A stretch of DNA of 34,764 nucleotides from a virus (lineage: Duplodnaviria; Heunggongvirae; Uroviricota; Caudoviricetes), in IMG/VR virus record IMGVR_UViG_2671180568_000001. One strand, given 5' to 3'. Both the position numbers and the translations under genes were made by a program. A model generated the notes under the pieces. The model searched no databases. It saw nothing but the letters and a program-made list of their open reading frames with translations, and was not told the DNA's origin. Positions 7,987 through 34,764 of this stretch are shown here, one piece after another. The number at the start of each line of letters is the position of its first letter. Positions within the stretch are counted from its first letter, which is position 1.

Positions 7987-8040
7987 TTGTTTTCCCTCAT
8001 GCAAAAGCCCAAATGATGCCAGCTAGGGGGGAAAACTACA

Positions 8041-8066: not shown

Positions 8067-8405
8067 GCGGCTAAAAGGAATGTAGGGACAGGGGCAAATC
8101 AGATACCTGATATGGGTAGCTTCACGCTTTCTGTTTCAGGTACTGGATATCAAAAATTACCATCAGGTTTTATTCTTCAGTGGGGCTCAATCGGCGCACC
8201 AGGCATTGCACAGGATGTAGTAACCCATTTCCCGATTGCATTTCCAAACAGATGTCTGCGTGTTTTGGTCTCACAAGACTACACACCAGATAGCGGGGCT
8301 GTTGGTTATATTGCCTGTGCAGGTTTTAGTCCCGACCCGGTTAAATTTATATCCAGAGCCAGTACTCCTGGCCTCGGCGCTTCATTTTTAGCGTTAGGCT
8401 GTTAA
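8053..8405 (+). CDS. tail-fibre variable C-terminal cassette Hv1, promoterless mirror copy
   Basis: Encodes the same residues as the C-terminus of H (...[16 protein letters not shown]...LALGC); begins at the crossover site with no start codon of its own. Confidence 0.5.
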
Positions 8406-8426
8406 TTTAGCTATATGGAGTGAAAA

Positions 8427-8867
8427 ATGAATTACATATATTCCGTGACTACAAACTCTTTCTATCCGCTGGAGATGAAAGAGGATTACACTCAAGCTGA
8501 CTCATGGCCAGATGATGCTGTTGAAGTTGATGAGCAAGCGTATATTGAGTTTTCCGGATTACCGCCGAAAGGAAAAATCCGTATCGCTGGAGAAAATGGT
8601 TTTCCTGCATGGTCTGAAATTCCACCACCAACACATGAGGAACAGATTGCTGCAGCCGAACTGGAAAAGCAGCAACTGATTAATCAGGCCAACGATTATA
8701 TGAACAGTAAACAATGGCCTGGTAAAGCGGCTATTGGTCGCCTGAAAGGTGAGGAACTGGCGCAATATAATTTGTGGCTGGATTATCTGGACGCACTGGA
8801 ACTGGTCGATACCTCCAGTGCTCCAGATATTGAATGGCCTACGCCTCCGGCAGTTCAGGCCAGATGA
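8427..8867 (+). CDS. tail fibre assembly protein Tfa1, mirror copy
   Basis: 146-aa ORF identical in translation to 10936..11376. Confidence 0.55.
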   Translation: MNYIYSVTTNSFYPLEMKEDYTQADSWPDDAVEVDEQAYIEFSGLPPKGKIRIAGENGFPAWSEIPPPTHEEQIAAAELEKQQLINQANDYMNSKQWPGKAAIGRLKGEELAQYNLWLDYLDALELVDTSSAPDIEWPTPPAVQAR

Positions 8868-9441
8868 CATCCGGCGCGGTGCTGGTATCTGTTGCCGTCA
8901 CCGCGTCAATGTAATCCAGCACGGCGTTAAGTCGGGTTGTTTCTGCCTGCGTCAACTTCCGTCCGGCCTGTAATTTCAGCTGAATCAGACTAATGGAAGC
9001 CATTGCTGCATCAATCAGTGACTGGCGCTGTGCTTCTGCCGCGTCTACTGCGGCACTATGCTGTGCCTCAGTATCCGTCACCCATTTCTCACCATCCCAT
9101 TTATCATATGGCGTTAACGGGGCGATAGTGGTTGTATTTTCAGGGTAATCACCCGGAGCTGTGATTTCTTTCGATTCTCCTGTTTCGGTGCTATAGATGA
9201 TTTCACCGCGATGGTCTGGCACATATTCCCATGAGTTAAAATCTGCAGAACGGCAGATTGCATAACCAGCTTTATGTGTAACTGGTGCATCTAAACAAGA
9301 ACATGCCGGGATACCGACGCCAACCGCAAGATATTCAGTTGATGTGGAAATATATTCCCGCGTTTCACCATCATAATTATAAATGGTAATGTCTCCCGCT
9401 TTTATGGCAATGAGTTCGTTATTTAATACGGCTTTATTCAT
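8839..9441 (-). CDS. tail fibre assembly protein Tfa2, mirror copy
   Basis: 200-aa ORF identical in translation to 10362..10964. Confidence 0.55.
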   Translation of the reverse strand: MNKAVLNNELIAIKAGDITIYNYDGETREYISTSTEYLAVGVGIPACSCLDAPVTHKAGYAICRSADFNSWEYVPDHRGEIIYSTETGESKEITAPGDYPENTTTIAPLTPYDKWDGEKWVTDTEAQHSAAVDAAEAQRQSLIDAAMASISLIQLKLQAGRKLTQAETTRLNAVLDYIDAVTATDTSTAPDVIWPELPEA

Positions 9442-9891
9442 CAGGCAGCCCTCACGATATAATTAAAGGCAATGTTACGAGGTCGGTTTTCGTTTGCAGT
9501 TGGAACAACTCTGGAAGCATCGAATGTTACTCGCTTTGCATAACCACCTTTAATTGAATCAGATGAAGCATCTCCGATGACGCTGGTTGTAAAAACGCCA
9601 GAATCAGAAGGGTAGGTATTAAACCTGACATCCACTAATGCACCAATTATATTTCGAATGGCATCTCCCTGTGACGAAAGCAAGCTACGGTTAGTATCTA
9701 TTCCTCTTCCGTCATCCCAGCCACGAATGAACTCACCACGTAAATCAGGCAATTTATTTGTCGGGTAAGCCTTTGCCAGTTCCGGGTATTCTTCAGCAGA
9801 AAAAGCCGCACCGTTGCATTTCAGCCAGCCTGTTGGCGGAGTGGCGGAAGGCCACGGAACAGGCACACCAACGGGTAATGCCGAACCTTCT
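9441..9891 (-). CDS. alternative tail-fibre C-terminal cassette Hv2, mirror copy, running into the N gap
   Basis: Same protein as 9902..10362; ends ...RNIAFNYIVRAA. Confidence 0.45.
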
Positions 9892-9901
9892 NNNNNNNNN
9901 N
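9892..9901. other. run of 10 N (assembly gap) beside the palindrome axis
   Basis: Literal N characters; the mirror positions 9902-9911 read ttggtttggg. Confidence 0.99.
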
Positions 9902-10362
9902 TTGGTTTGGGAGAAGGTTCGGCATTACCCGTTGGTGTGCCTGTTCCGTGGCCTTCCGCCACTCCGCCAACAGGCTGGCTGAAATGCAACGGTGCGGCTT
10001 TTTCTGCTGAAGAATACCCGGAACTGGCAAAGGCTTACCCGACAAATAAATTGCCTGATTTACGTGGTGAGTTCATTCGTGGCTGGGATGACGGAAGAGG
10101 AATAGATACTAACCGTAGCTTGCTTTCGTCACAGGGAGATGCCATTCGAAATATAATTGGTGCATTAGTGGATGTCAGGTTTAATACCTACCCTTCTGAT
10201 TCTGGCGTTTTTACAACCAGCGTCATCGGAGATGCTTCATCTGATTCAATTAAAGGTGGTTATGCAAAGCGAGTAACATTCGATGCTTCCAGAGTTGTTC
10301 CAACTGCAAACGAAAACCGACCTCGTAACATTGCCTTTAATTATATCGTGAGGGCTGCCTGA
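9902..10362 (+). CDS. alternative tail-fibre C-terminal cassette Hv2 (receptor-binding tip, promoterless)
   Basis: Begins with the crossover-site peptide GLGE; the C-terminal NIAFNYIVRAA matches the conserved end of P2/Mu-type fibre tips as recalled. Confidence 0.55.
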
Positions 10363-10964
10363 TGAATAAAGCCGTATTAAATAACGAACTCATTGCCATA
10401 AAAGCGGGAGACATTACCATTTATAATTATGATGGTGAAACGCGGGAATATATTTCCACATCAACTGAATATCTTGCGGTTGGCGTCGGTATCCCGGCAT
10501 GTTCTTGTTTAGATGCACCAGTTACACATAAAGCTGGTTATGCAATCTGCCGTTCTGCAGATTTTAACTCATGGGAATATGTGCCAGACCATCGCGGTGA
10601 AATCATCTATAGCACCGAAACAGGAGAATCGAAAGAAATCACAGCTCCGGGTGATTACCCTGAAAATACAACCACTATCGCCCCGTTAACGCCATATGAT
10701 AAATGGGATGGTGAGAAATGGGTGACGGATACTGAGGCACAGCATAGTGCCGCAGTAGACGCGGCAGAAGCACAGCGCCAGTCACTGATTGATGCAGCAA
10801 TGGCTTCCATTAGTCTGATTCAGCTGAAATTACAGGCCGGACGGAAGTTGACGCAGGCAGAAACAACCCGACTTAACGCCGTGCTGGATTACATTGACGC
10901 GGTGACGGCAACAGATACCAGCACCGCGCCGGATGTCATCTGGCCTGAACTGCCGGAGGCGTAG
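10362..10964 (+). CDS. tail fibre assembly protein Tfa2, cognate chaperone of Hv2
   Basis: 200-aa ORF overlapping the Hv2 stop (ATGA); C-terminal ...APDVIWPELPEA typical of Tfa/gpG-like chaperones. Confidence 0.7.
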   Translation: MNKAVLNNELIAIKAGDITIYNYDGETREYISTSTEYLAVGVGIPACSCLDAPVTHKAGYAICRSADFNSWEYVPDHRGEIIYSTETGESKEITAPGDYPENTTTIAPLTPYDKWDGEKWVTDTEAQHSAAVDAAEAQRQSLIDAAMASISLIQLKLQAGRKLTQAETTRLNAVLDYIDAVTATDTSTAPDVIWPELPEA

Positions 10965-11376
10965 GCCATTCAATATCTGGAGCACTGGAGGTATCGACCA
11001 GTTCCAGTGCGTCCAGATAATCCAGCCACAAATTATATTGCGCCAGTTCCTCACCTTTCAGGCGACCAATAGCCGCTTTACCAGGCCATTGTTTACTGTT
11101 CATATAATCGTTGGCCTGATTAATCAGTTGCTGCTTTTCCAGTTCGGCTGCAGCAATCTGTTCCTCATGTGTTGGTGGTGGAATTTCAGACCATGCAGGA
11201 AAACCATTTTCTCCAGCGATACGGATTTTTCCTTTCGGCGGTAATCCGGAAAACTCAATATACGCTTGCTCATCAACTTCAACAGCATCATCTGGCCATG
11301 AGTCAGCTTGAGTGTAATCCTCTTTCATCTCCAGCGGATAGAAAGAGTTTGTAGTCACGGAATATATGTAATTCAT
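10936..11376 (-). CDS. tail fibre assembly protein Tfa1 (gpG-like), cognate chaperone of the expressed fibre
   Basis: 146-aa ORF directly downstream of H; C-terminal ...APDIEWPTPPAVQAR. Confidence 0.8.
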   Translation of the reverse strand: MNYIYSVTTNSFYPLEMKEDYTQADSWPDDAVEVDEQAYIEFSGLPPKGKIRIAGENGFPAWSEIPPPTHEEQIAAAELEKQQLINQANDYMNSKQWPGKAAIGRLKGEELAQYNLWLDYLDALELVDTSSAPDIEWPTPPAVQAR

Positions 11377-11397
11377 TTTTCACTCCATATAGCTAAA

Positions 11398-12357
11398 TTA
11401 ACAGCCTAACGCTAAAAATGAAGCGCCGAGGCCAGGAGTACTGGCTCTGGATATAAATTTAACCGGGTCGGGACTAAAACCTGCACAGGCAATATAACCA
11501 ACAGCCCCGCTATCTGGTGTGTAGTCTTGTGAGACCAAAACACGCAGACATCTGTTTGGAAATGCAATCGGGAAATGGGTTACTACATCCTGTGCAATGC
11601 CTGGTGCGCCGATTGAGCCCCACTGAAGAATAAAACCTGATGGTAATTTTTGATATCCAGTACCTGAAACAGAAAGCGTGAAGCTACCCATATCAGGTAT
11701 CTGATTTGCCCCTGTCCCTACATTCCTTTTAGCCGCTTCTCCTAAACCAAGGTTTTTGAGAACCTCAGCAACCAATCCGGCGTCGGCCATTTCTTTTAGT
11801 GCGTTCGCAATCAGCGGGTATTGCTTATGCGGGTTAGCCTTTGCCTCATGATCTTTCATGAGTTTGTCGGCGTAGCTCTTCACCTCGATGACTGCATCGT
11901 CGACATATTTACGGGTTGCCAGCACGACTGACGGGTCGATTTTTAAGGTGATCGCCGAAGTGCTCGAGACAACGAGAATCATGCGAATGGTCTGCGTTCG
12001 GCCGCTCCCCTCAGCCAGTAACGGTTTATAGGTTTCCGGGCAGTTGGCGACAGCAATCAGGATACCTTCATCATCGTAAAGACCGATTTCGCGGATAAAG
12101 AAACCGCCCTCGTTTTCCGGGATGATCTGCTCGGCAATAATCTGACCGGTGTCGTTAGCATCTACTGCCAGTGAATTTAGCAGCTCGCGGCGACGCTCGT
12201 TAATGAGCTTTGTCTGAGCCGGGTCAGGTGTCGGCAGTGTGCCGTTTCCGTCCCCGACGGCCATTTGTGTAATATTCAGTTTAGTACCGAGTGCGGTCGC
12301 GTTTGCCAGTCGCGCCGCGCCCTGATGGGTCAGAATGGCAAAATATTTAGTCGTCAT
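11398..12357 (-). CDS. H: tail fibre protein H (constant N-terminal part fused to cassette Hv1)
   Basis: 319-aa ORF with P2 gpH-like N-terminus ([22 protein letters not shown]...MAVGDGNG); its C-terminus is duplicated at 8053..8405. Confidence 0.85.
11737..11762. other. hix/gix-like 26-bp crossover site inside H (minus strand TTCTCAAAAACC-TT-GGTTTAGGAGAA)
   Basis: Dyad half-sites; encodes [10 protein letters not shown] at the constant/variable junction of H; the palindrome arm ends at its central dinucleotide (11750). Confidence 0.6.
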
Positions 12358-14932: not shown

Positions 14933-16276
14933 CTAGCTTGGGGTAACTGTAACCTGACGAGAAAAAACAACAGGCTCCTTCAATTGCTCACATATAATTT
15001 TAAAATTAATAACTCCAGAGCCAATCGTTAAGGGAATGATGACTATTTCCTCATACTCAACAGTTAAGCTCTGTAACACTTTTTTCGCACGCAACGTGAT
15101 TTTATGGTCCTCTTTCATGACCCACTCATCTTGGTTAACTGTTCCTAAATCAGCCATCCGTTTAATTATTGCTGGCACTTCGAAATGAGGTTTAGCCATT
15201 ACCATCGATGTATCATCAAAAATACCCATCCTAAAATTTTCGAGTGACATTATAGCACTGAGTCTTTTTTTATGCTTACTTATTGGGGACTCAGGGATTT
15301 TTAATTTCGGCTCTTTTATAAATAAGTCTTCATTAGAACCTTTAAGCACTATTAGGAATTCAGGAAAATCAATCTCAACATAAACATTTGACGCAAAAGT
15401 CCTCCCATTATTTCTTAAAACGGGCTTCACTGTAATTGCATTGTTTTTGTAATTACAGTGCAATCTCATTTTTTTATTATATAAATCCACATCTTTATCA
15501 GTAGGCAGTGAAGAGTTATATGATTCAATCTCATCAATGGTGATAGTGTCCTTCAACTCAAGAGGTACCGCTTCCTTGCATAGTTGTGGAAGGTAATCCT
15601 GATAAGTCGACTCCACATCCACCGTCAAAGCTAAGTCATTATCAATCATGCTCAGCTCTAATTGAGGTGCATCGCTATGTAATTGGCTTTCATATTCGCG
15701 GACTTTTTCCCTTAATTTTCTATTTTCATTAGATAGCTCAGCCAACTCGGCGGTAATCTCTTTAGATGCGACCTGGTCACCGCGCACCCATCCTATTCGT
15801 GGATTTCGTCGCATTACTTTTGGTAAGGCGATAGCAACCTTCGTCGCTAACTCATCAATTGTCTCCCAAAAATCACACATTTTGTTAGCTTTAGCTTTTT
15901 CAATAAAAGCATTTAGTTGCTTTTCTTTTTGAGGGTCACTTTCTCGTTCATGTGGTTTTGTTAAAACGTCCCTCCCTCTAATAAAAGCCAACACCGGTAT
16001 ATTTAATGATTTAGCATAGTTATATTCCATTTCAGTATAGCTAATACCATCTTTAGAAACGGACCCATACTTATGCCCAATGATAATCACATAATAATCA
16101 CTAGCATCAATAGTCTCCTTTATTATATCCCACTGCTCAGAGTCATCAGCGCTAAACATCTCCATGCCAACTGGAAAGTGGTATAAACTAAGGACCGTTT
16201 CTATGATTTTTTTGCGAGCATCAATTAAATCGACGTATGTAGAGCTCACAAATACTTGATATTTTTTATTTTCCAT
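14933..16276 (-). CDS. cargo protein with DUF4062-like N-terminal domain and uncharacterised C-terminal region; candidate single-gene defence factor
   Basis: AT-rich 447-aa ORF between S and V; N-terminal motifs YQVFVSSTYVDL..ARKK, HFPVGMEMF, YYVIIIGHKYGS as recalled for DUF4062; AGGA RBS before ATG at 16276. Confidence 0.75.
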   Translation of the reverse strand: MENKKYQVFVSSTYVDLIDARKKIIETVLSLYHFPVGMEMFSADDSEQWDIIKETIDASDYYVIIIGHKYGSVSKDGISYTEMEYNYAKSLNIPVLAFIRGRDVLTKPHERESDPQKEKQLNAFIEKAKANKMCDFWETIDELATKVAIALPKVMRRNPRIGWVRGDQVASKEITAELAELSNENRKLREKVREYESQLHSDAPQLELSMIDNDLALTVDVESTYQDYLPQLCKEAVPLELKDTITIDEIESYNSSLPTDKDVDLYNKKMRLHCNYKNNAITVKPVLRNNGRTFASNVYVEIDFPEFLIVLKGSNEDLFIKEPKLKIPESPISKHKKRLSAIMSLENFRMGIFDDTSMVMAKPHFEVPAIIKRMADLGTVNQDEWVMKEDHKITLRAKKVLQSLTVEYEEIVIIPLTIGSGVINFKIICEQLKEPVVFSRQVTVTPS

Positions 16277-16313
16277 AACATCCTCACTTGTATAGAAAAT
16301 AAAATACATAAAA

Positions 16314-16781
16314 TCAATCAATAGATCTAGCCGCCTCAGCTAAAGAAACCATAATTATGTCATGAATCATATTTTTTGATTCATGATCAAACCCGATAAG
16401 CATTCGGGCGTCATACTGTACCGGCGCACTGTTTCGCCCAGGCTTATCTTTGAGACCGTACTGATGCACATTCGCCATCCGTTGTACCTTGCCGGTAAAT
16501 TCCACGACCGCCGAGTCATTCCCCGCTGTGGCTTTCATAAAGCGACTGGTGCGGAGCTTAGCGAACATTTCCCGCTTAACCCGGCCTGTTTTGGCTTTTA
16601 CCGGCTGGCGTTTTCGGGCGGCGTAAGGTGTCCCGTCCGGGGCTTTCTGCATTTTAATCCGGCGCTGTTGACGGGCTCGCAGGGTCTTAGCGATATCTGC
16701 GGCCATTCTGCGACGGGCGGCAGGAGACAGCGCTGCTATCAGCCCCGTGAGCGTATCGTCAAAGGGTTTAAAGTCATTCAT
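16314..16781 (-). CDS. S: tail completion protein S
   Basis: 155-aa ORF downstream of R, P2 gpS-like. Confidence 0.85.
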   Translation of the reverse strand: MNDFKPFDDTLTGLIAALSPAARRRMAADIAKTLRARQQRRIKMQKAPDGTPYAARKRQPVKAKTGRVKREMFAKLRTSRFMKATAGNDSAVVEFTGKVQRMANVHQYGLKDKPGRNSAPVQYDARMLIGFDHESKNMIHDIIMVSLAEAARSID

Positions 16782-25145: not shown

Positions 25146-25832
25146 TTATTGCTTATCTTGTGGTGGTGGAACCTCTTTTTCTAAATTATCTACATACTCT
25201 CTAATATTGAATGCTTTGTTTTTCCTTATTTCGGTAGTGTTAACCTTACTAACACCATCACGAATGTTTTTATTTATGGTGTCTATTAATTTTTGTCTTT
25301 CTTGTTCTGTTTTTATTATTTCACTTAAGAATGACTTTGCGTTTCTTGAAATGTCCGTCTGTCTATTAATGAATAGTATCGCATACACTGAAAAAACCAA
25401 GCAAGTAGTCGTTAGTGCGGAATTAAAAAATACCCCATAATAAACATTAACTTTTGTTATTGACGCTGATAACGTTAGTGATATCAAAAAAAACAAAATC
25501 AGGGTAAAAATATATGCAATGGTTACTTTGTTTTTAGTGGTGTCAAGAATGTATGAAGTTCTTTGATCATCAAAGTAATCCTTTATCCTTGATGGAGTGT
25601 TTGCGGGGAGTTCTAACTCCTTTATTTTATCATCAGCATCAATTAGTCGCTTAAACATGAGGCTAATGATTACGGCGCTAAAGACAGAGATCCCCTTTGA
25701 AATTATAGGATCGAAATCAATTAAAAATGAGTATTTTGAATAAACAAAAACAATAACAAAACCACATATAAGCCCAATTACAATTGAGCTTGCTATGTTT
25801 TTTGCATATGTTTGTAACGTATTGTTTATCAT
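25146..25832 (-). CDS. cargo membrane protein (four predicted TM helices plus charged C-terminal tail); candidate effector of a two-gene module
   Basis: AT-rich 228-aa ORF with four hydrophobic ~20-aa segments; start ATG overlaps the upstream gene stop (ATGA). Confidence 0.7.
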   Translation of the reverse strand: MINNTLQTYAKNIASSIVIGLICGFVIVFVYSKYSFLIDFDPIISKGISVFSAVIISLMFKRLIDADDKIKELELPANTPSRIKDYFDDQRTSYILDTTKNKVTIAYIFTLILFFLISLTLSASITKVNVYYGVFFNSALTTTCLVFSVYAILFINRQTDISRNAKSFLSEIIKTEQERQKLIDTINKNIRDGVSKVNTTEIRKNKAFNIREYVDNLEKEVPPPQDKQ

Positions 25833-26812
25833 GGGTTAATTACTCCGGTGTCTAGTAAGCGCAATAACCATGAAATCATTTCTTCAGCAACGTTGTCAGC
25901 AATTAGCATTCCATTGCTGTATTCAATATTAACTGAATCCTTTAGTTGAATCTCATCATTCCTGAGTATTCCTGCACCTTTTAACTCAATTGTTAAGCTT
26001 TCATCTCTATTATCAACCAAGCCTTGTGTAATTTTACGCAACATGTCTTGCTCAGACTCGCTTGCTTTATATTTATACCCAATGGAAATATCAATTGATA
26101 GAGATTCCCTGTCAGGTGAACCATCATTTAAAATGGCATTTTTCTTCATTTCATTAATTCGATGTTCACCTACGAGCGTTTTTAATAGCTCACTAGCTGT
26201 ATCATCAATATTATTTCCATAGTAGGTTAAAGGCAGCTTTAAGCTAACATTTTTTACTATGTTACGTTTTAAAAAATCCGTATTTAGAGACAGGTTGTTT
26301 GCCTGTAAAACGATGAAGTTATCATCAGTAATAGATAGGTTGTCTTGTAGTATGAAATTTATATAATTTTCAATATCTTTTATTCTAATAGATCTGCTTT
26401 GCAGAATTATGAAGTGGTTCTTAATCACACCAATGTATGCAATGCTTTCTAAATACTCTCTAGCATTCCCACTTGATAAATTTAATGTCTCGTATGTTAA
26501 AGCTGTTTTAGCATAATCGCTAACAGAGAAAACAGGAATGCTACTACCCGGTTCAATATAGACAATTTCCGCAAAAAACATTCCATGAATTTCTTTGCTA
26601 TTTGAAAGAACCATGTGGGCGTGAGCAGCGACATTACCATTATTATCTGGAACATCAGGGAAGAATAATCTATCAGCAACATTTGGAACCTTGATTTTCA
26701 CAAGGTTTGCCAACCTATCTTGCAGGTTTGATGTTAAAAGAGCATCCTTTTTAGGAAGCATTATTGCATGGCGATAATGCAGCATTTTACTCTTATAATC
26801 TTGCGTTGCCAT
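25829..26812 (-). CDS. cargo soluble protein, uncharacterised; candidate sensor partner of the membrane protein
   Basis: AT-rich 327-aa ORF with no TM segments; AGAGGGA RBS before ATG at 26812; no motif recognised by eye. Confidence 0.7.
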   Translation of the reverse strand: MATQDYKSKMLHYRHAIMLPKKDALLTSNLQDRLANLVKIKVPNVADRLFFPDVPDNNGNVAAHAHMVLSNSKEIHGMFFAEIVYIEPGSSIPVFSVSDYAKTALTYETLNLSSGNAREYLESIAYIGVIKNHFIILQSRSIRIKDIENYINFILQDNLSITDDNFIVLQANNLSLNTDFLKRNIVKNVSLKLPLTYYGNNIDDTASELLKTLVGEHRINEMKKNAILNDGSPDRESLSIDISIGYKYKASESEQDMLRKITQGLVDNRDESLTIELKGAGILRNDEIQLKDSVNIEYSNGMLIADNVAEEMISWLLRLLDTGVINP

Positions 26813-27406: not shown

Positions 27407-27555
27407 TAACGTATTGGCAAAAGATGGGAAGAGAAAAAGTGAATCGGGTAGGTGTTGTATGTACATGATATGGATGTAAATTAATCACCTGTGAGTTTTG
27501 ATGTTTCTGCCAGCACCGCAACACGATTAAGGATTTCCCTAGGCTTTGCCTGAAG

Positions 27556-29703
27556 CTATGGCGCTGCGGAGAAAATTTCACCTTTGGACGTTCCACGCAA
27601 CCATTTACCGTTAATACAACTTTTGCCACCTGCTATCAGGTGCAGGGCTTCTCCCCGGCTGATGGTAATGCCGGTTGTCAGACGGATCTCGTCGATAGTT
27701 TTTTCTATCGGAGCACTTTGCTCATCTGTTCCGTGGATAAATTTCGGCCTCTTAGGTGGCTTTGGTTTCCTGATTCGGTTCGTCAGCTCTCGCCTTTCAC
27801 GTCGACTCAGGGGTTTTGATAAATCGAGTTCCGGTGGATCGCTTTCGCTTCCCGTACAGTTATTGACAGAACTCCAAGGGACGGCGAAGCCGTCCTTAAC
27901 GTCAACGGCCAAATCAACGGCACGCTTCGGAACAATTTTCCATTGCGTGAGCCGGGTTAAAATCGGAGTGCCAACACCAACGGTGGAGTCGTACACACCA
28001 CGAATGCAGACAGTTTCCTCACCATACTGGTTAAACTCGGTGCGCGGTTCATAAAGCGTACGCACCTGCAAATCATCGCGACGGACAAACGGACCGCCCT
28101 GCGCATTAACATAGCCAGCCCAATCACCGGCATCGGCGGCATCATGGACAGCCGCAAACTCAACACTTAGACCGTGCGCGGTCTCGGTATCTGCAAGGCG
28201 ACGCAATTCACGATAAACAGTCACTGGTGCACCACCGATAAACTGAAACTGACGAATATGCCAGCGCGCCGCCCATGCTGAAACGGCGGGGGCTGTCTCT
28301 TTCAACAGTTCACCGTTTTCGTCATCGGTTTCGTCATCAAGAGCGTAACCGTCGATATTTTTCGAGATGTATTTCGCGACGTAGCCGGTTGCGCTGCCTT
28401 TCTCCGGATCAATGGCTTCTGCGTGGAAACGTGCTTTTTTGGCTTTATCGCTTTTGAGTTCGTGAAAATCTTCTTGCCATGCGTAGTCCCGAATAATGCC
28501 ACGAACGGTATCGACGTCCTCCGGGAGCATAAACATCAGCATATGCCAGTGAGGGCACCCGTCATGGTGAGGCTCTGCAACGCGGATCCCGAAAATACGA
28601 ATGTCTTCACGGTGGAGTTTTGCGCGAATGCGTGCCCACAGGCCAGTGAGATAACATTGCGTATCGGATGGATTGGATCCATTCCATTTGGTGTTACGGT
28701 AGCCTGCCTTTGTCGTGGCGTGATATTTAGACGGTGCGGTCAGGGTGTAAAACTCACCAACATAACCGAGCTCATTGCAGATATTTTCAAACCCACGAAT
28801 GCGGGTCATAAGCTCACAGCGTCGAATCGCAGAGTTAGCGACTGAACCATCGTATTTTTCAATCAGGCTGATACGGTTGCCGTCTTCGTCTTCAAGCTCC
28901 AGACCTTTGAGAAATTCGCGCGTCCGGCGCTTCTGTTCACGCCAGTCTGTCACGCAGTTTTTACTCGCGTAGACATGTTTTTTCTTACTGACATTTCCGA
29001 TTGCGATTTGCAGGTGTTCGCGCCACGCAGCCGCAATGCGACGCAGACGGCCACGCCACCATTTTTCCGAAAACATACGGGCAATTGCTGGAGCGACTTT
29101 ATCCTGATCCCAATATTTATCCCGCGACCGTTCCCACTCTGGTGGCATTATCCTGAATTGCTGAGTGATGAAACCAGCATGCATATACCAGGCATTTAAT
29201 GTCTCCAGTTCACACATGTCAGAATCGTCAATGTTGACTAACTCTGCACGGATAAAATCGGCGATATCAGCAGCCAGCAGGTCGATGTCGGCGCGTGCCA
29301 TATCCGGGAGTCGGTTGTATCTGGCGACTATGTTGACCATGCGAGACGCCAGATATTGCATAAGCTGAGTATCGAAATGACAACCGAAAACAGCGGCTGA
29401 TACGTTGCTGTTAATACCGGTACACTCGTATTTTTTTGCGACCAGTTCAAAACGCGGCAATGCCTTTTTGCAGAAGCTTATTAAAAAAGCATTGGCTCGT
29501 TGACTGCCCTGATTTTGCTCCAGCACCGCAGCAGTGCGATAAACGTCAAAACGTACACACTCGGGCTGGAGGGAAAGCACCTTTCTAGCATGCAGCAAAG
29601 CCGCGAGCATACGGTCGCGGCGATACTGTTGGTCGTAGGTAAGATATGGACTGGCTATTGCCGACCGTGGAGCATTCCACGGAAACGCGAATTGAACAGC
29701 CAA
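27556..29703 (-). CDS. A: replication initiation endonuclease A (rolling-circle initiator)
   Basis: 715-aa ORF in the P2 gpA position with gpA-like sequence character. Confidence 0.9.
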   Translation of the reverse strand: MAVQFAFPWNAPRSAIASPYLTYDQQYRRDRMLAALLHARKVLSLQPECVRFDVYRTAAVLEQNQGSQRANAFLISFCKKALPRFELVAKKYECTGINSNVSAAVFGCHFDTQLMQYLASRMVNIVARYNRLPDMARADIDLLAADIADFIRAELVNIDDSDMCELETLNAWYMHAGFITQQFRIMPPEWERSRDKYWDQDKVAPAIARMFSEKWWRGRLRRIAAAWREHLQIAIGNVSKKKHVYASKNCVTDWREQKRRTREFLKGLELEDEDGNRISLIEKYDGSVANSAIRRCELMTRIRGFENICNELGYVGEFYTLTAPSKYHATTKAGYRNTKWNGSNPSDTQCYLTGLWARIRAKLHREDIRIFGIRVAEPHHDGCPHWHMLMFMLPEDVDTVRGIIRDYAWQEDFHELKSDKAKKARFHAEAIDPEKGSATGYVAKYISKNIDGYALDDETDDENGELLKETAPAVSAWAARWHIRQFQFIGGAPVTVYRELRRLADTETAHGLSVEFAAVHDAADAGDWAGYVNAQGGPFVRRDDLQVRTLYEPRTEFNQYGEETVCIRGVYDSTVGVGTPILTRLTQWKIVPKRAVDLAVDVKDGFAVPWSSVNNCTGSESDPPELDLSKPLSRRERRELTNRIRKPKPPKRPKFIHGTDEQSAPIEKTIDEIRLTTGITISRGEALHLIAGGKSCINGKWLRGTSKGEIFSAAP

Positions 29704-30644: not shown

Positions 30645-31154
30645 TCATACCAAACCGAATGTTGCGCCAATGCCGGTCATGGTGTCGACGACGCTCGACA
30701 TTGCCGGGTTAGCCTGGAGGCGAGCCTGTAACGCCAGCGCCGACAATGACAGCATGCGAATACCGGCGTTAACGCTTTCAACCATGTTGTGTTTACGAGC
30801 AGAGGTCAGGCGTTCATCAGATGCAGCACCGTTCGCCAGTTCGCCGAGTTCGCTCATTGCGCGCATGACATAGGACTGCAATTTATCTTTAGCCAACTCA
30901 TTAACCGGCACACAAGGTAGACAATGGATCTGCGCCAGAAAGCCATCAACGAGGGTTGAGTCTTCGGTCAGATCAGTCAGCAGCCATAACTCAGGCGGTG
31001 TGAACTGGTGAGGCTGTTCCGGGTTAAGTTTGTTACGTAACGTCTGAACATTCATACCCGCATGCTCGGCCAGCTTCGCCATATTGTGACGCTGCGCGAA
31101 AGCCCGGCACGCTTCGTCATAGTGGGGATGTTTGGAAATTTGAAAATCAAACAT
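30645..31154 (-). CDS. 186 CII-like HTH transcriptional activator (alternative: P2 B-like early protein)
   Basis: 169-aa ORF, second gene of the early operon; HTH-like segment MAKLAEHAGMNVQTLRNKLN; size and position fit 186 CII. Confidence 0.55.
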   Translation of the reverse strand: MFDFQISKHPHYDEACRAFAQRHNMAKLAEHAGMNVQTLRNKLNPEQPHQFTPPELWLLTDLTEDSTLVDGFLAQIHCLPCVPVNELAKDKLQSYVMRAMSELGELANGAASDERLTSARKHNMVESVNAGIRMLSLSALALQARLQANPAMSSVVDTMTGIGATFGLV

Positions 31155-31189
31155 GTATTTTCCCTCGCTATCTTAAATAATCGAGTTTC

Positions 31190-31414
31190 TTAGGCTGCCA
31201 CATAGCGGCAATTAAGGCCCTGAGCCAAGAGTCGAGCACGGAAGGCAACCATATTGATACGCGCAGCACCACCGTCTTTTTTACGGGGCATCAGGAGGAG
31301 ATCTCCATCAGCAACCATCTGTTTTACAGTGCGAATGCTGTAGCCGTAGCATTCAGCAAATTCGTCATAAGTCATGAGATCCGCGCCGGACGGGATTGCA
31401 ATTTGTGGAGTCAT
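31190..31414 (-). CDS. Apl/Cox-like excisionase and lytic-operon regulator (HTH)
   Basis: 74-aa first gene of the early operon, facing cI; HTH-like YSIRTVKQMVADG. Confidence 0.6.
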   Translation of the reverse strand: MTPQIAIPSGADLMTYDEFAECYGYSIRTVKQMVADGDLLLMPRKKDGGAARINMVAFRARLLAQGLNCRYVAA

Positions 31415-31539
31415 AAGTAATCATCTCCGGTTACTAGTTGGTTTGGTGCATTGGCGTGCATTTTTAAATTCAAGCGAGAATCTTATCTCGAAAAAGCGAG
31501 ATGTCAATTTGGATTTTCGCGATAACTCGGATTTTTAAG
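31415..31539. promoter_or_regulatory. immunity switch region between apl-like and cI, with alternating CGAGA/TCTCG operator-like repeats
   Basis: Sequence AAGCGAGAATCTTATCTCGAAAAAGCGAGATG contains overlapping 5-bp inverted repeats; exact promoters not resolved. Confidence 0.4.
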
Positions 31540-32118
31540 ATGAAATTGGATGAGTTAGAGGGTGGAAAAGCAGTGCTGCAGCGCATCCTTGATGCGTATG
31601 GCTTCACCATGCAAAAACAACTCGGTGACTTGCATGAGCTGTCATCGGGAACAATCAGCACTTGGGTTCGGCGTAATTTTTTCCCCGGGGATGTTGTTGT
31701 TGCATGCGCTTTGGACACTGGGGTGTCTTTACGTTGGTTGGCAACAGGGAAGGGGAACAAGTTTGATGCAGACCATACTAATGGCGAAATGAAAACATTA
31801 GACCGATTGGATATTGTTGCAGGTAAGCTGCAGGAAAACGGTCATTGGATTGTTGATGCTAACCTCTTTTCTACTGAGGCGACGCACCCCAATTACATAG
31901 TAAAAGGCCAGCAGTCCTGGATAGTTGATTTTGATATGACTGATATAGCAAATGGGCGATGGATGCTCAGTATCGACGGGGATCATGATGTCTATGACGT
32001 TGCAAGGATCCCGGGGAACAGAATAAAAGTCAGCAACGCTGATGCCGATTTTCAATGCTCAGTTTCTGAGGTTAAGTGTATTGGCATGGTGCTGGTAAGC
32101 CTGACGAAATCTAGCTAA
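31540..32118 (+). CDS. cI: 186-type CI immunity repressor (N-terminal HTH, large C-terminal domain)
   Basis: Start at ATG 31540 gives 192 aa, the size of 186 CI; immediately upstream of int in the same orientation. Confidence 0.75.
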   Translation: MKLDELEGGKAVLQRILDAYGFTMQKQLGDLHELSSGTISTWVRRNFFPGDVVVACALDTGVSLRWLATGKGNKFDADHTNGEMKTLDRLDIVAGKLQENGHWIVDANLFSTEATHPNYIVKGQQSWIVDFDMTDIANGRWMLSIDGDHDVYDVARIPGNRIKVSNADADFQCSVSEVKCIGMVLVSLTKSS

Positions 32119-32122
32119 CGAT

Positions 32123-33160
32123 ATGAGTGTTAAAAAACTGACATCGGGTGAATGGCTTTGTGATTTCCGCGTCGACGGGGCTGAAAGTCGCCGCGTGCGT
32201 AAGAAGTTTTCAACCAAAGGTGAAGCCGTTGCCTTCGAGCAGTATTACCGAGAAGAGGCACAAAATAAGCCGTGGATGGGTGAGAAGGAAGACCGTCGAC
32301 GTTTGAGTGAACTGATTGAGCTGTGGCATAACCTCCATGGCCAGTCGCTCGCTGCCAGCAAATCGCGATTGGCCAAACTGCACATTGTTTGCCGGGGTCT
32401 TGGCGACCCAATCGCTACCCAGCTTACCGCCAAAGATTTCGCCCATTATCGGGATAAACGTCTCAAGGGTGAAATCGACAATGGCTATCACGCAAATTCT
32501 GAAAAGTGGATTGCGAAACCTGTGACTGTGAACCGGGAACAACAGTACCTCGAAGCTGTTTTCAATGAGCTGAAGCGCTTGGGTGAGTGGAGTCTGCCAA
32601 ATCCTCTCGAAGGTGTGCGAGTTTTCAAAGAAGCCGAAAAAGAAATGTCTTGGCTTACCCAGCCTCAAATTCGCGAAGTGCTCAATGCTTGTGAGTCATA
32701 CGGGAAAATTTATTTAACCCGTATCGTCAAAGTGTGCTTAGCGACTGGTGCTCGATGGAGCGAGGCCGAGCGTCTTACTCGTTCACAGCTTTCACCCCAC
32801 AAGTTGACTTTCACTAAAACGAAGGGAAAGAAGAATCGTACAGTACCGATCCCTCGGTGGCTATATGACGAGTTGGCTCCTTTACAGGGAAAAATGTTCC
32901 ACCCCTGCTATCAGGAGTTCAAGAAAATGCTCGCTCTGACCGATATAGAGTTAGCTGAAGGGCAAAAAACGCATGTGTTACGTCATACATTTGCGAGTCA
33001 CTTTATGATGAATGGTGGGAACATTTTAGTACTGCAACGAATCTTGGGCCATTCTAACATTAGGGAAACCATGAGATACGCTCATTTTGCACCAGATCAT
33101 TTAGAAGAAGCTGTAACTCTTAACCCTATTTCTAATTTAACAGGATTATATGATGAGTGA
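32123..33160 (+). CDS. int: tyrosine integrase (P2/186 family)
   Basis: 345-aa ORF with C-terminal HVLRHTFASHF...LGHSNIRETMRYAHF catalytic-region pattern. Confidence 0.92.
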   Translation: MSVKKLTSGEWLCDFRVDGAESRRVRKKFSTKGEAVAFEQYYREEAQNKPWMGEKEDRRRLSELIELWHNLHGQSLAASKSRLAKLHIVCRGLGDPIATQLTAKDFAHYRDKRLKGEIDNGYHANSEKWIAKPVTVNREQQYLEAVFNELKRLGEWSLPNPLEGVRVFKEAEKEMSWLTQPQIREVLNACESYGKIYLTRIVKVCLATGARWSEAERLTRSQLSPHKLTFTKTKGKKNRTVPIPRWLYDELAPLQGKMFHPCYQEFKKMLALTDIELAEGQKTHVLRHTFASHFMMNGGNILVLQRILGHSNIRETMRYAHFAPDHLEEAVTLNPISNLTGLYDE

Positions 33161-34079
33161 GCCAACCATCGAAACACCTCCAAGAATGACCGAGGCCAAA
33201 GTCATTAGGGTACGCACTCGTGGTTTTTATAATTTAGTTGAGATAGGTGCAGTCTTTCTAGTTGCAAATGTAATTTTTGCTACAGGGATATTAGACTCAA
33301 CCTTTTATTATTTATTTCCCAGTGCGAGAGCAGATCTTACACATTTGCCGAGCTTTATCAGGTCAATATTCGCAGTGTCATTTGTAATCGTTTACACCAT
33401 TATCTATGGTGTGTCTCCAATCCAAAGAATGTTTATGAGAATTACAGGGAGTGATTCAGTCGACAAATCATCGATGTTTAATATTGTCGATATTATAAAT
33501 GAGATAAAACTACTCAAGAAGGCTCAAGAGGAAAGGGCTGCTGCTGATGAAGATGAATCTCTGGATTTTTATCTTAAAGGTTTGATTAATAGCTCTGAAG
33601 GTCTTGCGAAAAACATATATTCTCGCGGTAGTCTTTATTTATTAGTCGGTGTTTGTTTTGCAATAGTTGGATTAGGTTTCTTCTATTCTCAATCACATGT
33701 AATTGATGCTAAGGATGATGCGGTAACCAAGGTAATGTATCTTCTCCCTAATTTTGGCGTGTTGATTTTCTTGGAGTTAATCGCATTTTTCTTTTTGAAG
33801 CAATATCGGGTTACGATGGATGAGTTTCGCTATTACGAGGCAATAAAACGTTCACGTGAGGAAAGCTATGCCATTATAAAGCTTGTAATGGCTAGCCAGA
33901 AAGATATCGATATGATAGACCTTCTGGATAAAATTAATTTTAGCTCAAGAGTTGGAAAACTAGAATCAGGGCAGACTACTGAAATTATTGAAGCAAGAAA
34001 ATTAGACAAAAATGAACTTGAAACCTTAGTAAAGCTTACCGAGGCAGTTGCGGGTAAGATTGGACAGGGAAATAAGTAG
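33150..34079 (+). CDS. cargo polytopic membrane protein downstream of int; candidate lysogen-expressed exclusion/defence factor
   Basis: AT-rich 309-aa ORF overlapping the int stop by 11 nt; AGGA RBS; at least four hydrophobic helices and a charged coiled-coil-like C-terminus. Confidence 0.65.
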   Translation: MMSEPTIETPPRMTEAKVIRVRTRGFYNLVEIGAVFLVANVIFATGILDSTFYYLFPSARADLTHLPSFIRSIFAVSFVIVYTIIYGVSPIQRMFMRITGSDSVDKSSMFNIVDIINEIKLLKKAQEERAAADEDESLDFYLKGLINSSEGLAKNIYSRGSLYLLVGVCFAIVGLGFFYSQSHVIDAKDDAVTKVMYLLPNFGVLIFLELIAFFFLKQYRVTMDEFRYYEAIKRSREESYAIIKLVMASQKDIDMIDLLDKINFSSRVGKLESGQTTEIIEARKLDKNELETLVKLTEAVAGKIGQGNK

Positions 34080-34236
34080 TGTCCACAATCTGCCCACACA
34101 GCATGTTTATGGCTGCACTTGACTACACTAGTGATACATATAACTAACTGTTTATAATGAAAAATGCATGTTTATCAATGGTATCATGTAAAAGCGTCTT
34201 AACTAAGGTTTCGCTTAAGCGACATCCTGTTAAGAA

Positions 34237-34264
34237 GGGCTGGCCAATTGGCTGGCCCTTTTTT
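34237..34264. terminator. rho-independent terminator GGGCTGGCCAATTGGCTGGCCC + TTTTTT, likely shared by the int operon and convergent yfiB
   Basis: GC-rich hairpin followed by six T on the plus strand, 24 nt from the yfiB stop. Confidence 0.55.
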
Positions 34265-34281
34265 ATCTGTTTGCTCGTGTT

Positions 34282-34764
34282 TTAAGGGGTTGTAATCACC
34301 ACTGCGACGCGGCGGTTCTCGGCGCGGCCCTGGGCGGTCTTGTTACTGGCTATGGGATATTTTTTTCCTAAACCCTGTGTGGTGAGATTGCTGCGTGGAA
34401 TTTGTCCACCAATAGCCCATGCATCGGCCACGACATTCGCCCGTTTCAATGATAAGCCTTCGTTGTAACTGTCTTCACCATAGTTATCGGTGTGTCCATC
34501 CATACGGGCATGTGTTAGCCCTGTCTAGGCCAATTTGGCTGCCATGGTTTGGATCTGTTGCTGGCTTTCCGGGAGCAATTTGTAGTCATTTTTTGCGAAC
34601 AGAATGGCATCTGATAAGCCCAGCGACCAGTCGCCGGCGGATTCAGTAAATCCATAAGATTGCATAGCGGCGACTTGCTCAGGAGTAAACTTTCCCTGAG
34701 GGGACTGGCAGCCAGTCAGTATTAGTGAGGTGAAAATCAGGGGTGCTACCAGGTGCTTTATCAT
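34282..34764 (-). pseudogene. yfiB: yfiB (OmpA-family outer-membrane lipoprotein) interrupted by an in-frame TAG
   Basis: ORFs 34525..34764 (MIKHLVAPLIFTSLILTGCQSPQGKF...) and 34282..34503 (...MDGHTDNYGEDSYNEGLSLKRANVVADAW...NRRVAVVI) are collinear in one frame, separated by TAG at 34522-34524. Confidence 0.6.

What the first reader, a model, noticed from the sequence alone, without database searches (positions are those of the whole stretch)
33150..34079. AT-rich polytopic membrane protein tucked between integrase and the prophage end
Seen in sequence: a 309-aa ORF starts 11 nt inside the int stop codon with an AGGA RBS, is visibly AT-rich, has at least four hydrophobic helices separated by a charged coiled-coil-like region, and is followed by a terminator at 34237..34264. 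Inference: it would be co-transcribed with cI and int in the lysogen, a typical arrangement for superinfection-exclusion or abortive-infection cargo. No homologue recognised.
Basis: partly seen in the sequence, partly recalled or inferred. Interest (0 to 1): 0.6.

Follow-up and report, generated by a model that had tools for sequence, protein, structure and literature searches.

The report
Unstudied prophage membrane protein, probable defence
A real, well-conserved four-helix inner-membrane protein sits in the small cargo slot between the integrase and the attachment site of a 186/P2-like E. coli prophage; it belongs to a large, completely unstudied protein family that keeps turning up in phage-defence neighbourhoods, so it is a good but unproven candidate for a new anti-phage protein.

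Summary
The ORF (33150/33153..34079, +; WP_001294850.1) is real. It overlaps the int stop, is AT-rich (GC 0.37 against 0.51) and has four strong hydrophobic helices. Orthologue dN/dS is about 0.1. It lies inside the prophage: the att core (3' end of rplS) is at 34193-34206.

No Pfam, NCBIfam, PADLOC, PDB or BFVD match is significant. The family is nevertheless large: 2406 clusters at 50% identity across many phyla, all labelled hypothetical.

It is a stand-alone gene, found next to integrases, at prophage ends, and beside pAgo, Shedu, Lamassu and Abi genes. TM3, TM4 and the following helix are strongly conserved, with a membrane-embedded Glu. The N-terminal 2-TM half is hypervariable and is swapped between near-identical phages. 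Four diverged alleles survive in prophage remnants at the same rplS site, three of them inside 2.1-2.5 kb att-bounded islands.

DefensePredictor (Science 2026, Table S10) already lists this exact protein as a predicted novel defence gene (log-odds 6.2). It has not been tested.

Best reading: a lysogen-expressed membrane phage-exclusion protein. The mechanism is inferred, not shown.

The parts
33150..34079 (+). The ORF: a 309-aa (RefSeq 308-aa, start 33153) four-pass inner-membrane protein, WP_001294850.1
   Evidence: Homologues. dN/dS 0.08-0.11.
33141..33144 (+). AGGA ribosome-binding site, 5 or 8 nt upstream of the two candidate ATGs. The ORF start overlaps the int stop (33158-33160).
   Evidence: Sequence.
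33231..33416 (+). N-terminal 2-TM module: TM1 is aa 27-49 and carries the nearly invariant Glu30; TM2 is aa 66-88 and ends in the motif FG..PL with Pro89 (308-aa numbering). Moderately conserved helices with a variable loop between them.
33112..33746 (+). Swapped, hypervariable block: the last ~50 nt of int plus ORF aa 1-198. It has no DNA similarity to an otherwise 94%-identical E. coli prophage (L045).
33624..33800 (+). Conserved TM3-TM4 hairpin (aa 158-180 and 194-216). G166 and G173 are invariant; P199 and Glu208 are nearly invariant.
   Evidence: AlphaFold pLDDT 83-92.
33747..33860 (+). Family signature, aa 199-236: PxFGILFFIExIAFFFLKQYRxxMDEFRYYEAIKRSREE. It covers TM4 and the cytoplasmic juxtamembrane helix.
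32123..33160 (+). Tyrosine integrase (Int_N plus Phage_integrase domains), directly upstream and overlapping the ORF.
31501..32118 (+). 186-type CI repressor (RefSeq start 31540), first gene of the presumed cI-int-ORF lysogenic operon.
   Evidence: Promoter-like site at 31323-31352.
34079..34104 (+). GTGTCCAC/CTGCCCAC repeat abutting the ORF stop codon. A putative Int arm-type binding site of attP; two GTGTCCA copies sit at the matching position of attL.
   Evidence: The role is inferred, not tested.
34193..34206 (+). att core AGCGTCTTAACTAA, the last 14 nt of rplS. Identity with the empty rplS-yfiB site starts here, marking the prophage boundary.
34232..34263 (+). Host rplS/yfiB intrinsic terminator, outside the prophage. 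It is the first strong terminator downstream of the ORF.

Best explanation
The ORF is accessory cargo (a 'moron') of a 186/P2-like temperate phage that integrates into the 3' end of rplS. It is packed between int and the attP arm.

In the lysogen it is most likely made from the cI-int transcript, with translation coupled to int. It inserts into the inner membrane with both termini in the cytoplasm and four TM helices.

I propose that it is a single-gene phage-exclusion protein, built from two parts.

- The strongly conserved TM3-TM4 hairpin with its membrane-embedded Glu, together with the juxtamembrane helix (KQYR..MDEFRYYEAIKRSREE), would be the effector. It would oligomerise into, or gate, an ion-conducting path.
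- The hypervariable N-terminal 2-TM module and linker would set which incoming phage is recognised at the membrane.

Firing would collapse the membrane potential or block genome entry, stopping the superinfecting phage.

Shown: the gene, its topology signal, its position inside the prophage, the conservation pattern, the allele swapping, its retention after prophage decay, and its defence-type neighbourhoods.

Inferred: expression in the lysogen, oligomerisation or pore activity, and any anti-phage effect.
For: Real gene under purifying selection.
- dN/dS is 0.107 against Cedecea and 0.082 against a Citrobacter remnant.

Inside the element and tightly packed.
- att core at 34193-34206; arm-type repeats start at the stop codon.

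Nothing interrupts transcription before the ORF.
- No promoter-like site or strong terminator between cI and the ORF, only a weak hairpin inside cI; the ORF start overlaps the int stop.

Topology.
- Four hydrophobic helices, with the K/R-rich N-tail and the long loops on one side.
- All-helical AlphaFold model, pLDDT 75, with long TM3 and TM4 helices continuing into the cytoplasm.

Conservation by region (entropy-based score, 0-1).
- TM3 0.71, TM4 0.79 and the post-TM4 helix 0.73, against 0.2-0.46 for the N-terminal half.
- G166, G173, Y218 and R233 are invariant; E30, P89 and E208 are nearly invariant.

Cassette swap.
- An E. coli prophage with cI 99%, int 96.5% and cII 97% identical carries an allele only 46% identical.
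- DNA identity is lost exactly over 33112-33746, the N-terminal ~198 aa.

Retention after prophage decay.
- att-bounded 2.1-2.5 kb islands at rplS hold essentially only this gene, in two Citrobacter lineages and in E. hormaechei. Their alleles are mutually 35-52% identical.
- A further Citrobacter remnant keeps a 77-aa int fragment plus the ORF.
- The large-deletion prophage of E2348/69 keeps an identical copy.

Context elsewhere.
- Integrase directly upstream in Zoogloea and Dyadobacter.
- At prophage ends in Enterobacter and Alcaligenes.
- Beside Lamassu in Pseudomonas.
- Strong PADLOC hits among 132 neighbours of 25 loci: short pAgo with a REase-TIR partner, Shedu SduA, Menshen NsnB, RmrA, SoFic and others. 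Abi_C and PIN_12 are also adjacent.

Literature.
- The int-att interval is a recognised minor P2 defence hotspot (PMC13586616).
- WP_001294850.1 is a 'Predicted novel defense gene' with mean log-odds 6.22 against a cutoff of 4 (PMC13092281 Table S10).
- Four-pass membrane proteins are the membrane components of RexAB-type prophage Abi systems (PMC7542560).
Against: - No experiment exists for any member of the family.
- No conserved partner gene and no recognisable sensor or enzymatic domain. A trigger mechanism therefore has to be assumed.
- DefensePredictor uses genomic context, so its score is not independent of my neighbourhood evidence. Only 45% of its tested candidates protected.
- The defence-neighbour count has no matched background control.
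- Several family loci have ordinary housekeeping neighbours.
- The gene is rare in E. coli: 17 of 5426 complete genomes.
Confidence: 0.45

Rival explanations
1. Non-lethal superinfection exclusion. The protein sits in the inner membrane and blocks genome translocation by incoming phages, as T4 Imm, P22 SieA or HK97 gp15 do. It forms no pore and the cell survives.
For: - Prophage-encoded inner-membrane protein, probably made with the repressor.
- The hypervariable membrane-proximal N-terminal module fits an arms race with phage ejection proteins.
- No partner or sensor gene is needed for this mode.
- A weak SieB-like gene lies next to a homologue in Chitinophaga.
Against: - The periplasmic loops are only about 12-15 aa.
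- The most conserved part is the TM3-TM4 hairpin and a cytoplasmic helix, preserved from Proteobacteria to Bacteroidota and Bacillus. That is odd for a protein that must match particular phages.
- No similarity to SieB or other exclusion families.
Confidence: 0.2
2. A lysogenic-conversion or host-physiology membrane protein, such as an ion channel, stress-tolerance factor or envelope factor. It benefits the host for reasons unrelated to phages and is retained for that reason.
For: - Retention under purifying selection in prophage remnants.
- Membrane-embedded conserved Glu residues and a channel-like helical hairpin.
- Some family loci have housekeeping neighbours.
- No defence-family homology.
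Against: - A hypervariable N-terminal half and cassette swapping between near-identical phages are typical of conflict genes, not housekeeping functions.
- The gene recurs beside integrases and known defence genes.
- It is patchy and rare: 0.3% of complete E. coli genomes.
- DefensePredictor log-odds 6.2.
Confidence: 0.2
3. A selfish function serving the element. Either a membrane toxin or addiction factor, or a protein used in the phage's own cycle (lysis timing, induction, DNA entry or exit).
For: - Position next to int/attP, with translational coupling to int.
- In the circular phage it flanks attP together with the 240-aa end gene.
- It is membrane-active in principle.
Against: - Sequenced 186/P2 phages lack it: no tblastn hit in 50,697 phage records, and DNA matches cover only cII and fil.
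- It persists when the rest of the phage is deleted.
- It occurs in non-phage defence islands.
- No antitoxin-like partner is conserved.
Confidence: 0.1
4. A MotA/ExbB/ZorA-like stator subunit: a proton-driven motor protein, as in Zorya.
For: - Same gross layout as MotA: two TM helices, a cytoplasmic loop of about 70 aa, two more TM helices, and a cytoplasmic tail of about 90 aa. That this matches MotA is from my own knowledge of MotA.
- PomA, MotA and ExbB appear among Foldseek hits.
Against: - Those Foldseek hits are not significant: E about 1, probability 0.10-0.35, TM-score 0.16-0.27.
- No member hits Pfam MotA_ExbB at E<0.1.
- The family profile finds no MotA, ExbB, TolQ or ZorA chain in the PDB even at E<=10.
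- No MotB/ExbD/ZorB-like partner gene is conserved.
Confidence: 0.03

Closest known systems
RexB of phage lambda, and the RexB-like four-pass membrane components of mycobacteriophage and Gordonia prophage Abi systems (Sbash gp31, Butters gp31, CarolAnn)
   Same: - Prophage-encoded inner-membrane protein with four TM helices.
- Placed in the lysogenic operon with the repressor.
- The proposed output is loss of membrane potential (PMC7542560; lambda map).
   Different: - No sequence relationship: hhalign probability 0.3%; the PADLOC RexB model hits 1 of 60 members at E 0.086.
- Twice the size of RexB (144 aa), with about 160 aa of cytoplasmic sequence.
- No RexA-like partner gene.
Inner-membrane superinfection-exclusion proteins: T4 Imm, P22 SieA/SieB, HK97 gp15
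   Same: Small membrane proteins made by a resident phage that stop other phages at or just after genome entry. They act as single genes. (The properties of these proteins are from my own knowledge.)
   Different: - No similarity; Pfam SieB is not hit.
- This family has a deeply conserved TM hairpin and cytoplasmic helix shared across phyla, and very short periplasmic loops.
SLATT-type 2-TM effector domains, including Pfam PF20712 CyanoTRADDas_TM
   Same: - A two-helix membrane hairpin predicted to be the pore-forming output of conflict systems (PMC7159879).
- 17 of 60 family members give weak hits of their TM3-TM4 region to PF20712, best E 5e-4.
   Different: - All hits seen in detail are below the gathering score: 13-15 bits against 24.3.
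- No TRADD-N, SMODS, TIR or other signalling partner is fused or adjacent.
- A BFVD SLATT protein matches only at E 1.6.
P2-like prophage defence hotspots (old, tin and Z/fun loci; the minor int-att hotspot)
   Same: - AT-rich variable cargo at a fixed slot of a P2/186-like genome, with different content in closely related phages.
- The same prophage also carries AT-rich cargo in the gpA-portal and tail-gene slots.
   Different: - Here the slot holds diverged alleles of a single family rather than unrelated systems.
- The protein is not one of the systems catalogued by PADLOC.
DefensePredictor 'uncharacterized predicted defence' clusters (Science 2026)
   Same: This exact accession is one of the 1,041 E. 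coli pangenome clusters in Table S10. Its log-odds is 6.22, and no HHblits or Foldseek hit to known defence proteins is recorded for it.
   Different: It is not among the 94 cloned or 42 validated units. The family signature strings are absent from the stored supplementary tables. Some of those tables are truncated, so this check is not exhaustive.

Membership tests
RexB (lambda exclusion membrane protein) | Sequence or profile similarity to RexB | tested here: not met
   hhalign of A3 against lambda RexB gives probability 0.3%. The PADLOC RexB model hits 1 of 60 members at E 0.086. RexB is not among the Pfam families hit at E<=0.1.
RexB (lambda exclusion membrane protein) | Four TM helices, encoded in the prophage lysogenic operon | tested here: met
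   Four hydrophobic segments. The ORF follows cI-int with no strong intervening terminator. Operon membership is inferred.
RexB (lambda exclusion membrane protein) | Works with an adjacent cytoplasmic RexA-like sensor | tested here: not met
   All-against-all BLASTP of the +-4 neighbouring ORFs in 33 loci found no conserved partner.
PF20712 CyanoTRADDas_TM / SLATT-like 2-TM effectors | Score at or above the Pfam gathering threshold (24.3 bits) | tested here: not met
   17 of 60 members hit, best E 5e-4. Those seen in detail score 13-15 bits over TM3-TM4.
PF20712 CyanoTRADDas_TM / SLATT-like 2-TM effectors | Fusion to, or adjacency with, TRADD-N, SMODS, SLOG, TIR or similar signalling modules | tested here: not met
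   Longer members carry only disordered, coiled-coil, Zn-ribbon or duplicated 2-TM extensions. No conserved neighbour.
MotA/ExbB/TolQ/ZorA stator family | Sequence or structural match to PF01618 or to solved stator subunits | tested here: not met
   No Pfam hit. No PDB sequence hit at E<=10. Foldseek E about 1 with TM-score 0.16-0.27.
MotA/ExbB/TolQ/ZorA stator family | Partner single-TM protein (MotB/ExbD/ZorB) encoded next to it | tested here: not met
   No conserved neighbour.
SieB superinfection-exclusion family (PF14163) | Pfam match | tested here: not met
   No hit for the ORF or for any of 60 members.
Cargo of the P2-like int-att hotspot | Lies between int and the att site, inside the att-bounded element | tested here: met
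   att core at 34193-34206 against the empty site. Arm-type repeats start at the ORF stop. The att core is duplicated around remnant islands.
Cargo of the P2-like int-att hotspot | Content varies between closely related phages | tested here: met
   Backbone proteins are 96.5-99% identical and flanking DNA 94%, yet the ORF is 46% identical. DNA similarity is lost over 33112-33746.
Cargo of the P2-like int-att hotspot | Confers resistance to other phages | not testable with these tools
   Needs plaque assays. Only a machine-learning prediction exists.
Known defence systems (PADLOC-DB v2.0.0) | Significant match to any model | tested here: not met
   Only spurious Cas5 hits at E 1e-3 to 1e-4, and one member at 0.007 to a 4TM effector model.
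PHROG phrog_5157 (phage protein family, function unknown) | HMM match | tested here: met
   E 3.8e-9, aa 155-287 against profile positions 180-312 of 331. The family carries no functional information.

The most novel reading that the evidence does not exclude
The family would be a previously unrecognised, phylum-spanning class of self-contained membrane immune proteins, with sensor and effector in one polypeptide.

- A rapidly diversifying N-terminal 2-TM 'receptor' module would detect membrane-inserting components of an incoming phage, such as ejection or tape-measure proteins.
- It would open a conserved Glu-bearing TM3-TM4 hairpin pore, with no partner protein and no nucleotide signal.

Temperate phages would carry it beside attP, and bacteria would keep it as a domesticated mini-island after the phage decays.
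Probability: 0.2. Interest if true: 0.75.

Novelty: new variant of a known kind. Interest (0 to 1): 0.55.

Why it matters
If the protein does protect against phages, it would give a function to a family of more than 2,400 sequence clusters spread over many bacterial phyla. That family currently has no Pfam model, no name and no solved relative.

It would also be a compact single-gene system in which the specificity part and the effector part can be read directly from the conservation pattern. Natural allele swaps are already available as test material.

Two further points are useful for people mapping defence hotspots or annotating small orphan islands:

- It is a clean example of the little-studied int-att cargo slot of P2/186-like phages.
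- It shows a prophage decaying to a 2 kb att-bounded island that retains only the useful gene.

If it has no anti-phage activity, it is still a conserved, horizontally spread membrane protein whose retention needs another explanation.

Tried and rejected
Searches that gave nothing significant.
- Pfam, NCBIfam and PADLOC on the ORF and on 60 homologues. Hits to Cas5a/Cas5c, DUF6057 and Voltage_CLC are weak and match biased helical segments, so I treat them as spurious.
- Family profile against PDB sequences: one hit at E 8.6.
- Foldseek against BFVD and the PDB: nothing at E<=1e-3.
- The AFDB50 library was unavailable.
- tblastn against 50,697 phage records: no match.
- Megablast of the cII-to-att region against phages matched only cII and fil.

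Ideas tested and dropped.
- Relationship to RexB: rejected.
- MotA/ExbB stator: not supported.
- A conserved partner gene: none found.
- Informative domain fusions in longer homologues: none.
- A second, profile-based protein search returned only more 'hypothetical' proteins with no Pfam domains.
- A tRNA or other RNA gene at the att site: none. The att site is the 3' end of rplS.
- Read-through from rplS driving the cargo gene at attL: rejected, because the phage supplies its own terminator directly after the rebuilt rplS stop.

Literature.
- A full-text search for the accession found nothing in main texts.
- It was found only in a supplementary table.
- The family signature strings are absent from the DefensePredictor tables of tested proteins as stored; some of those tables are truncated.
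Full report
**1. The observation**

The window's right end is 100% identical to E. coli PCN033. It holds cI (31501/31540-32118), a tyrosine integrase (32123-33160) and the ORF in question, all on the + strand.

- The ORF runs 33150-34079 (309 codons). RefSeq starts it at the second ATG, 33153 (308 aa, WP_001294850.1, 'hypothetical protein').
- It overlaps the int stop codon (33158-33160) and is preceded by AGGA at 33141-33144.
- Its GC content is 0.370 (GC3 0.329), against 0.469 for int and 0.507 for the window.
- Four segments reach a 19-residue Kyte-Doolittle mean of 2.09-2.25: aa 28-50, 67-89, 159-181 and 195-217 in 309-aa numbering.
- The K/R-rich N-tail, the charged linker of about 70 aa and the C-terminal 90 aa all fall on one side. 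This gives an N-in, C-in four-pass topology by the positive-inside rule, which is an inference.
- At this base composition a stop-free run of 309 codons has a chance of about 3e-10 (my arithmetic).
- Orthologues give dN/dS of 0.107 and 0.082.

The gene is real.

**2. Where the prophage ends**

- Genomes without the prophage have rplS and yfiB 75 bp apart. Identity with such an empty site begins at window 34193, in the last 14 nt of rplS.
- At the other junction in PCN033 the same core, AGCG(T/C)CTTAACTAA, closes a rebuilt rplS.
- GTGTCCA(C) repeats, present twice at attL, also begin exactly at the ORF's stop codon (34079-34104). I read them as Int arm sites, by inference.
- So the ORF is inside the att-bounded element, wedged between int and the attP arm.
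- The terminator at 34232-34263 belongs to the host (rplS/yfiB). The phage brings its own terminator for rplS at attL.
- No tRNA or Rfam RNA lies in 31000-34764.
- Between the promoter-like site upstream of cI (31323-31352) and the host terminator, the scan finds no promoter-like site upstream of the ORF. The only terminator-like site is a weak hairpin inside cI, 31706-31726.
- Co-transcription of cI, int and the ORF is therefore plausible, by analogy with the 186 pL operon. It is not shown.

**3. What the protein resembles**

Nothing with a name.

- Pfam, NCBIfam and PADLOC give only weak, spurious hits. PHROGs gives phrog_5157, function unknown, at E 3.8e-9.
- The family profile finds nothing in the PDB by sequence.
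- Two AlphaFold models (pLDDT 70 and 75) are all-helical. Two very long helices (133-181 and 190-248) form a hairpin whose membrane parts are TM3 and TM4.
- RexB is unrelated: hhalign probability 0.3%.
- The one recurring weak signal is Pfam PF20712, a 2-TM domain associated with cyanobacterial TRADD-N conflict systems. It is hit by the TM3-TM4 region of 17 of 60 members, but below threshold. It is a lead, not a membership.

**4. The family**

- A single-sequence search found 117 homologues. The identical protein was seen on 832 contigs.
- A profile search of 1.84 billion cluster representatives found 2406 at E<=1e-3 and 322 at E<=1e-30.
- A genome scan recovered members in Gamma-, Beta-, Alpha- and Deltaproteobacteria, Bacteroidota, Acidobacteriota and Bacillus.
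- Every member is 'hypothetical' with no Pfam domain.
- Longer members add only disordered, coiled-coil, zinc-ribbon or duplicated 2-TM extensions.

Conservation is strongly polar:

| Region | Conservation score (0-1) |
|---|---|
| TM3 | 0.71 |
| TM4 | 0.79 |
| post-TM4 helix | 0.73 |
| TM1 | 0.39 |
| TM2 | 0.46 |
| loops and linker | 0.20-0.27 |

- The signature is PxFGILFFIExIAFFFLKQYRxxMDEFRYYEAIKRSREE.
- G166, G173, F206, F214, L215, Y218 and R233 are invariant.
- E30 (in TM1), P89 and E208 (in TM4) are nearly invariant.
- Conserved acidic residues inside two TM helices, plus a rigidly conserved juxtamembrane helix, suggest an ion path or gate. That is inference.

**5. Genomic behaviour**

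*(a) Stand-alone gene.* All-against-all comparison of the four ORFs on each side in 33 loci found no conserved partner.

*(b) Rides on integrative elements.*
- cI-int-ORF-yfiB occurs in Cedecea (93% identical).
- A second E. coli 186-like prophage has the same arrangement.
- An integrase lies directly upstream in Zoogloea and Dyadobacter.
- It sits at prophage ends in Enterobacter roggenkampii and Alcaligenes.

*(c) Swapped like a cassette.*
- The second E. coli prophage has cI 99%, int 96.5% and cII 97% identical to the window, but its ORF is only 46% identical.
- DNA identity is 94% up to 33111, undetectable over 33112-33746, and 86.7% from 33747 onwards.
- The break at 33747 is codon 199, the start of the signature.
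- Regional protein identity is 20% (aa 1-132), 42% (133-198), 71% (199-250) and 63% (251-308).

*(d) Outlives the phage.*
- In Citrobacter portucalensis, the interval between rplS and yfiB holds only a 76-aa int fragment and the ORF homologue.
- In another Citrobacter lineage the homologue is alone there.
- In Enterobacter hormaechei it is accompanied by a 240-aa gene.
- The att core is duplicated around each of these islands, which are 2.1-2.5 kb long.
- These three alleles are 35-42% identical to one another. Across the wider set compared, including the window's allele, pairwise identity is 34-55%. They therefore derive from different phages.
- A fourth remnant carries an 86%-identical allele behind a 77-aa int fragment and still shows dN/dS 0.082.
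- E2348/69 has a large internal prophage deletion that truncates int but keeps an identical ORF.

*(e) Defence-type neighbours.*
- In Pseudomonas it lies beside Lamassu and other conflict-system domains.
- Among 132 ORFs within three genes of 25 other loci, PADLOC models hit strongly: a short pAgo with its REase-TIR partner, Shedu SduA, Menshen NsnB, RmrA, SoFic, PDC-M55A, HEC-03B, mad3 and capH.
- Abi_C, PIN_12 and Fic/DOC proteins are immediate neighbours.
- I did not compute a matched background, and some loci have ordinary neighbours.

In complete E. coli genomes the gene is rare: 17 of 5426, always at the rplS-yfiB site and 99.9-100% identical.

**6. Literature**

- DefensePredictor (Science 2026, PMC13092281) lists WP_001294850.1 in Table S10, the 1,041 uncharacterised predicted defence clusters of the E. 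coli pangenome. Mean log-odds is 6.22 (sd 1.05, range 5.09-7.87) against a strict cutoff of 4. No HHblits or Foldseek hit to known defence proteins is recorded for it.
- It was not among the 94 units cloned, of which 42 (45%) protected. The family's signature strings are absent from the stored tables of tested proteins.
- The model uses genomic context, so this is not independent of section 5.
- Known prophage Abi systems of the RexAB type in lambda, Sbash, Butters and CarolAnn all use a four-pass membrane protein (PMC7542560). They always pair it with a cytoplasmic partner, which is missing here.

**7. Interpretation**

The best-supported reading is that this is lysogen-expressed cargo whose product acts at the inner membrane against other phages (confidence 0.45).

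The division into a diversifying N-terminal 2-TM module and a fixed TM3-TM4/juxtamembrane core fits a specificity-plus-effector design. I favour a pore or gate (abortive infection) over a passive block of DNA entry, for two reasons:

- the most constrained part is intramembrane and cytoplasmic, and is conserved across phyla;
- the periplasmic loops are tiny.

This step is inference, and non-lethal exclusion is a serious rival (0.2). A phage-unrelated host benefit (0.2) and an element-selfish role (0.1) are not excluded. A MotA/ExbB-type stator is essentially ruled out as a membership claim.

**8. Novelty and score**

- The placement and the general idea (a membrane 'moron' for exclusion) are familiar.
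- The slot has been described, and the accession already sits in a published prediction table.
- What is not in the literature I could search: the size and phyletic spread of the family, its conserved-core/variable-head anatomy, the allele swapping, and its survival as att-bounded mini-islands.

I rate it a new variant of a known kind, with interest 0.55. It is a strong, cheap experimental candidate rather than a surprise.

Noticed in passing
window 1-723 (+): A 240-aa AT-rich ORF (WP_000948616.1, hypothetical) is the cargo at the opposite prophage end, next to attL and rplS. A 91%-identical gene sits 243 bp upstream of the ORF homologue in the E. hormaechei att-bounded mini-island (L009). Both end-cargo genes therefore survive loss of the phage core. 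In the circular phage the two genes flank attP on the same strand. No PADLOC hit.
   Followed up: partly
window 25146-26812 (-): Two overlapping very AT-rich ORFs (327 and 228 aa, GC 0.30-0.33) lie in the classic P2 gpA-portal hotspot. The 228-aa protein (WP_000609549.1) is in DefensePredictor Table S10 with log-odds 9.12. Neither ORF hits PADLOC.
   Followed up: partly
window 14933-16321 (-): An AT-rich (GC 0.34-0.41) gene for a DUF4062-domain protein sits inside the tail and virion morphogenesis genes, the second P2 hotspot. Other DUF4062 proteins appear in DefensePredictor tables with remote ThsB/TIR-like similarity. No PADLOC hit.
   Followed up: partly
window 7408-11400: A serine invertase gene (7408-8004) lies next to inverted duplicate tail-fibre and tail-fibre-assembly cassettes. 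The window is identical to the PCN033 RefSeq record only up to position 8059 and is about 1.85 kb longer in this invertible region.
   Followed up: partly
window 27481-29703 (-) and 34282-34764 (-): The replication endonuclease gene (gpA) has a stop about 25 codons before its annotated end, and host yfiB is split by an internal stop. RefSeq marks both as pseudogenes. The prophage may be replication-defective.
   Followed up: no
L041 (PCN033) attL, just downstream of rplS; window 34232-34263: The phage rebuilds the last codons of rplS and supplies its own intrinsic terminator (GGGGTTAGC...GCTAACCCC followed by a T-run) at attL. The original rplS terminator is displaced to attR, where it would end the cI-int-ORF transcript.
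   Followed up: partly
L015 (Zoogloea MAG) 2020-7483: A short prokaryotic Argonaute with a REase-TIR partner, then an integrase, then the ORF homologue: a compact mobile defence island.
   Followed up: no
window 31323-31352 (+) and 31507-31480 (-): A face-to-face pair of promoter-like sites lies between the apl/cox-like gene and cI, as in the phage 186 lysis-lysogeny switch.
   Followed up: no
L045 (E. coli QOLR01000064.1) 6001-6915: A second E. coli allele of the family (304 aa, 46% identical) occupies the same int-att slot of a near-identical phage backbone. It does not overlap int: there is a 14-nt gap and a different RBS region.
   Followed up: yes
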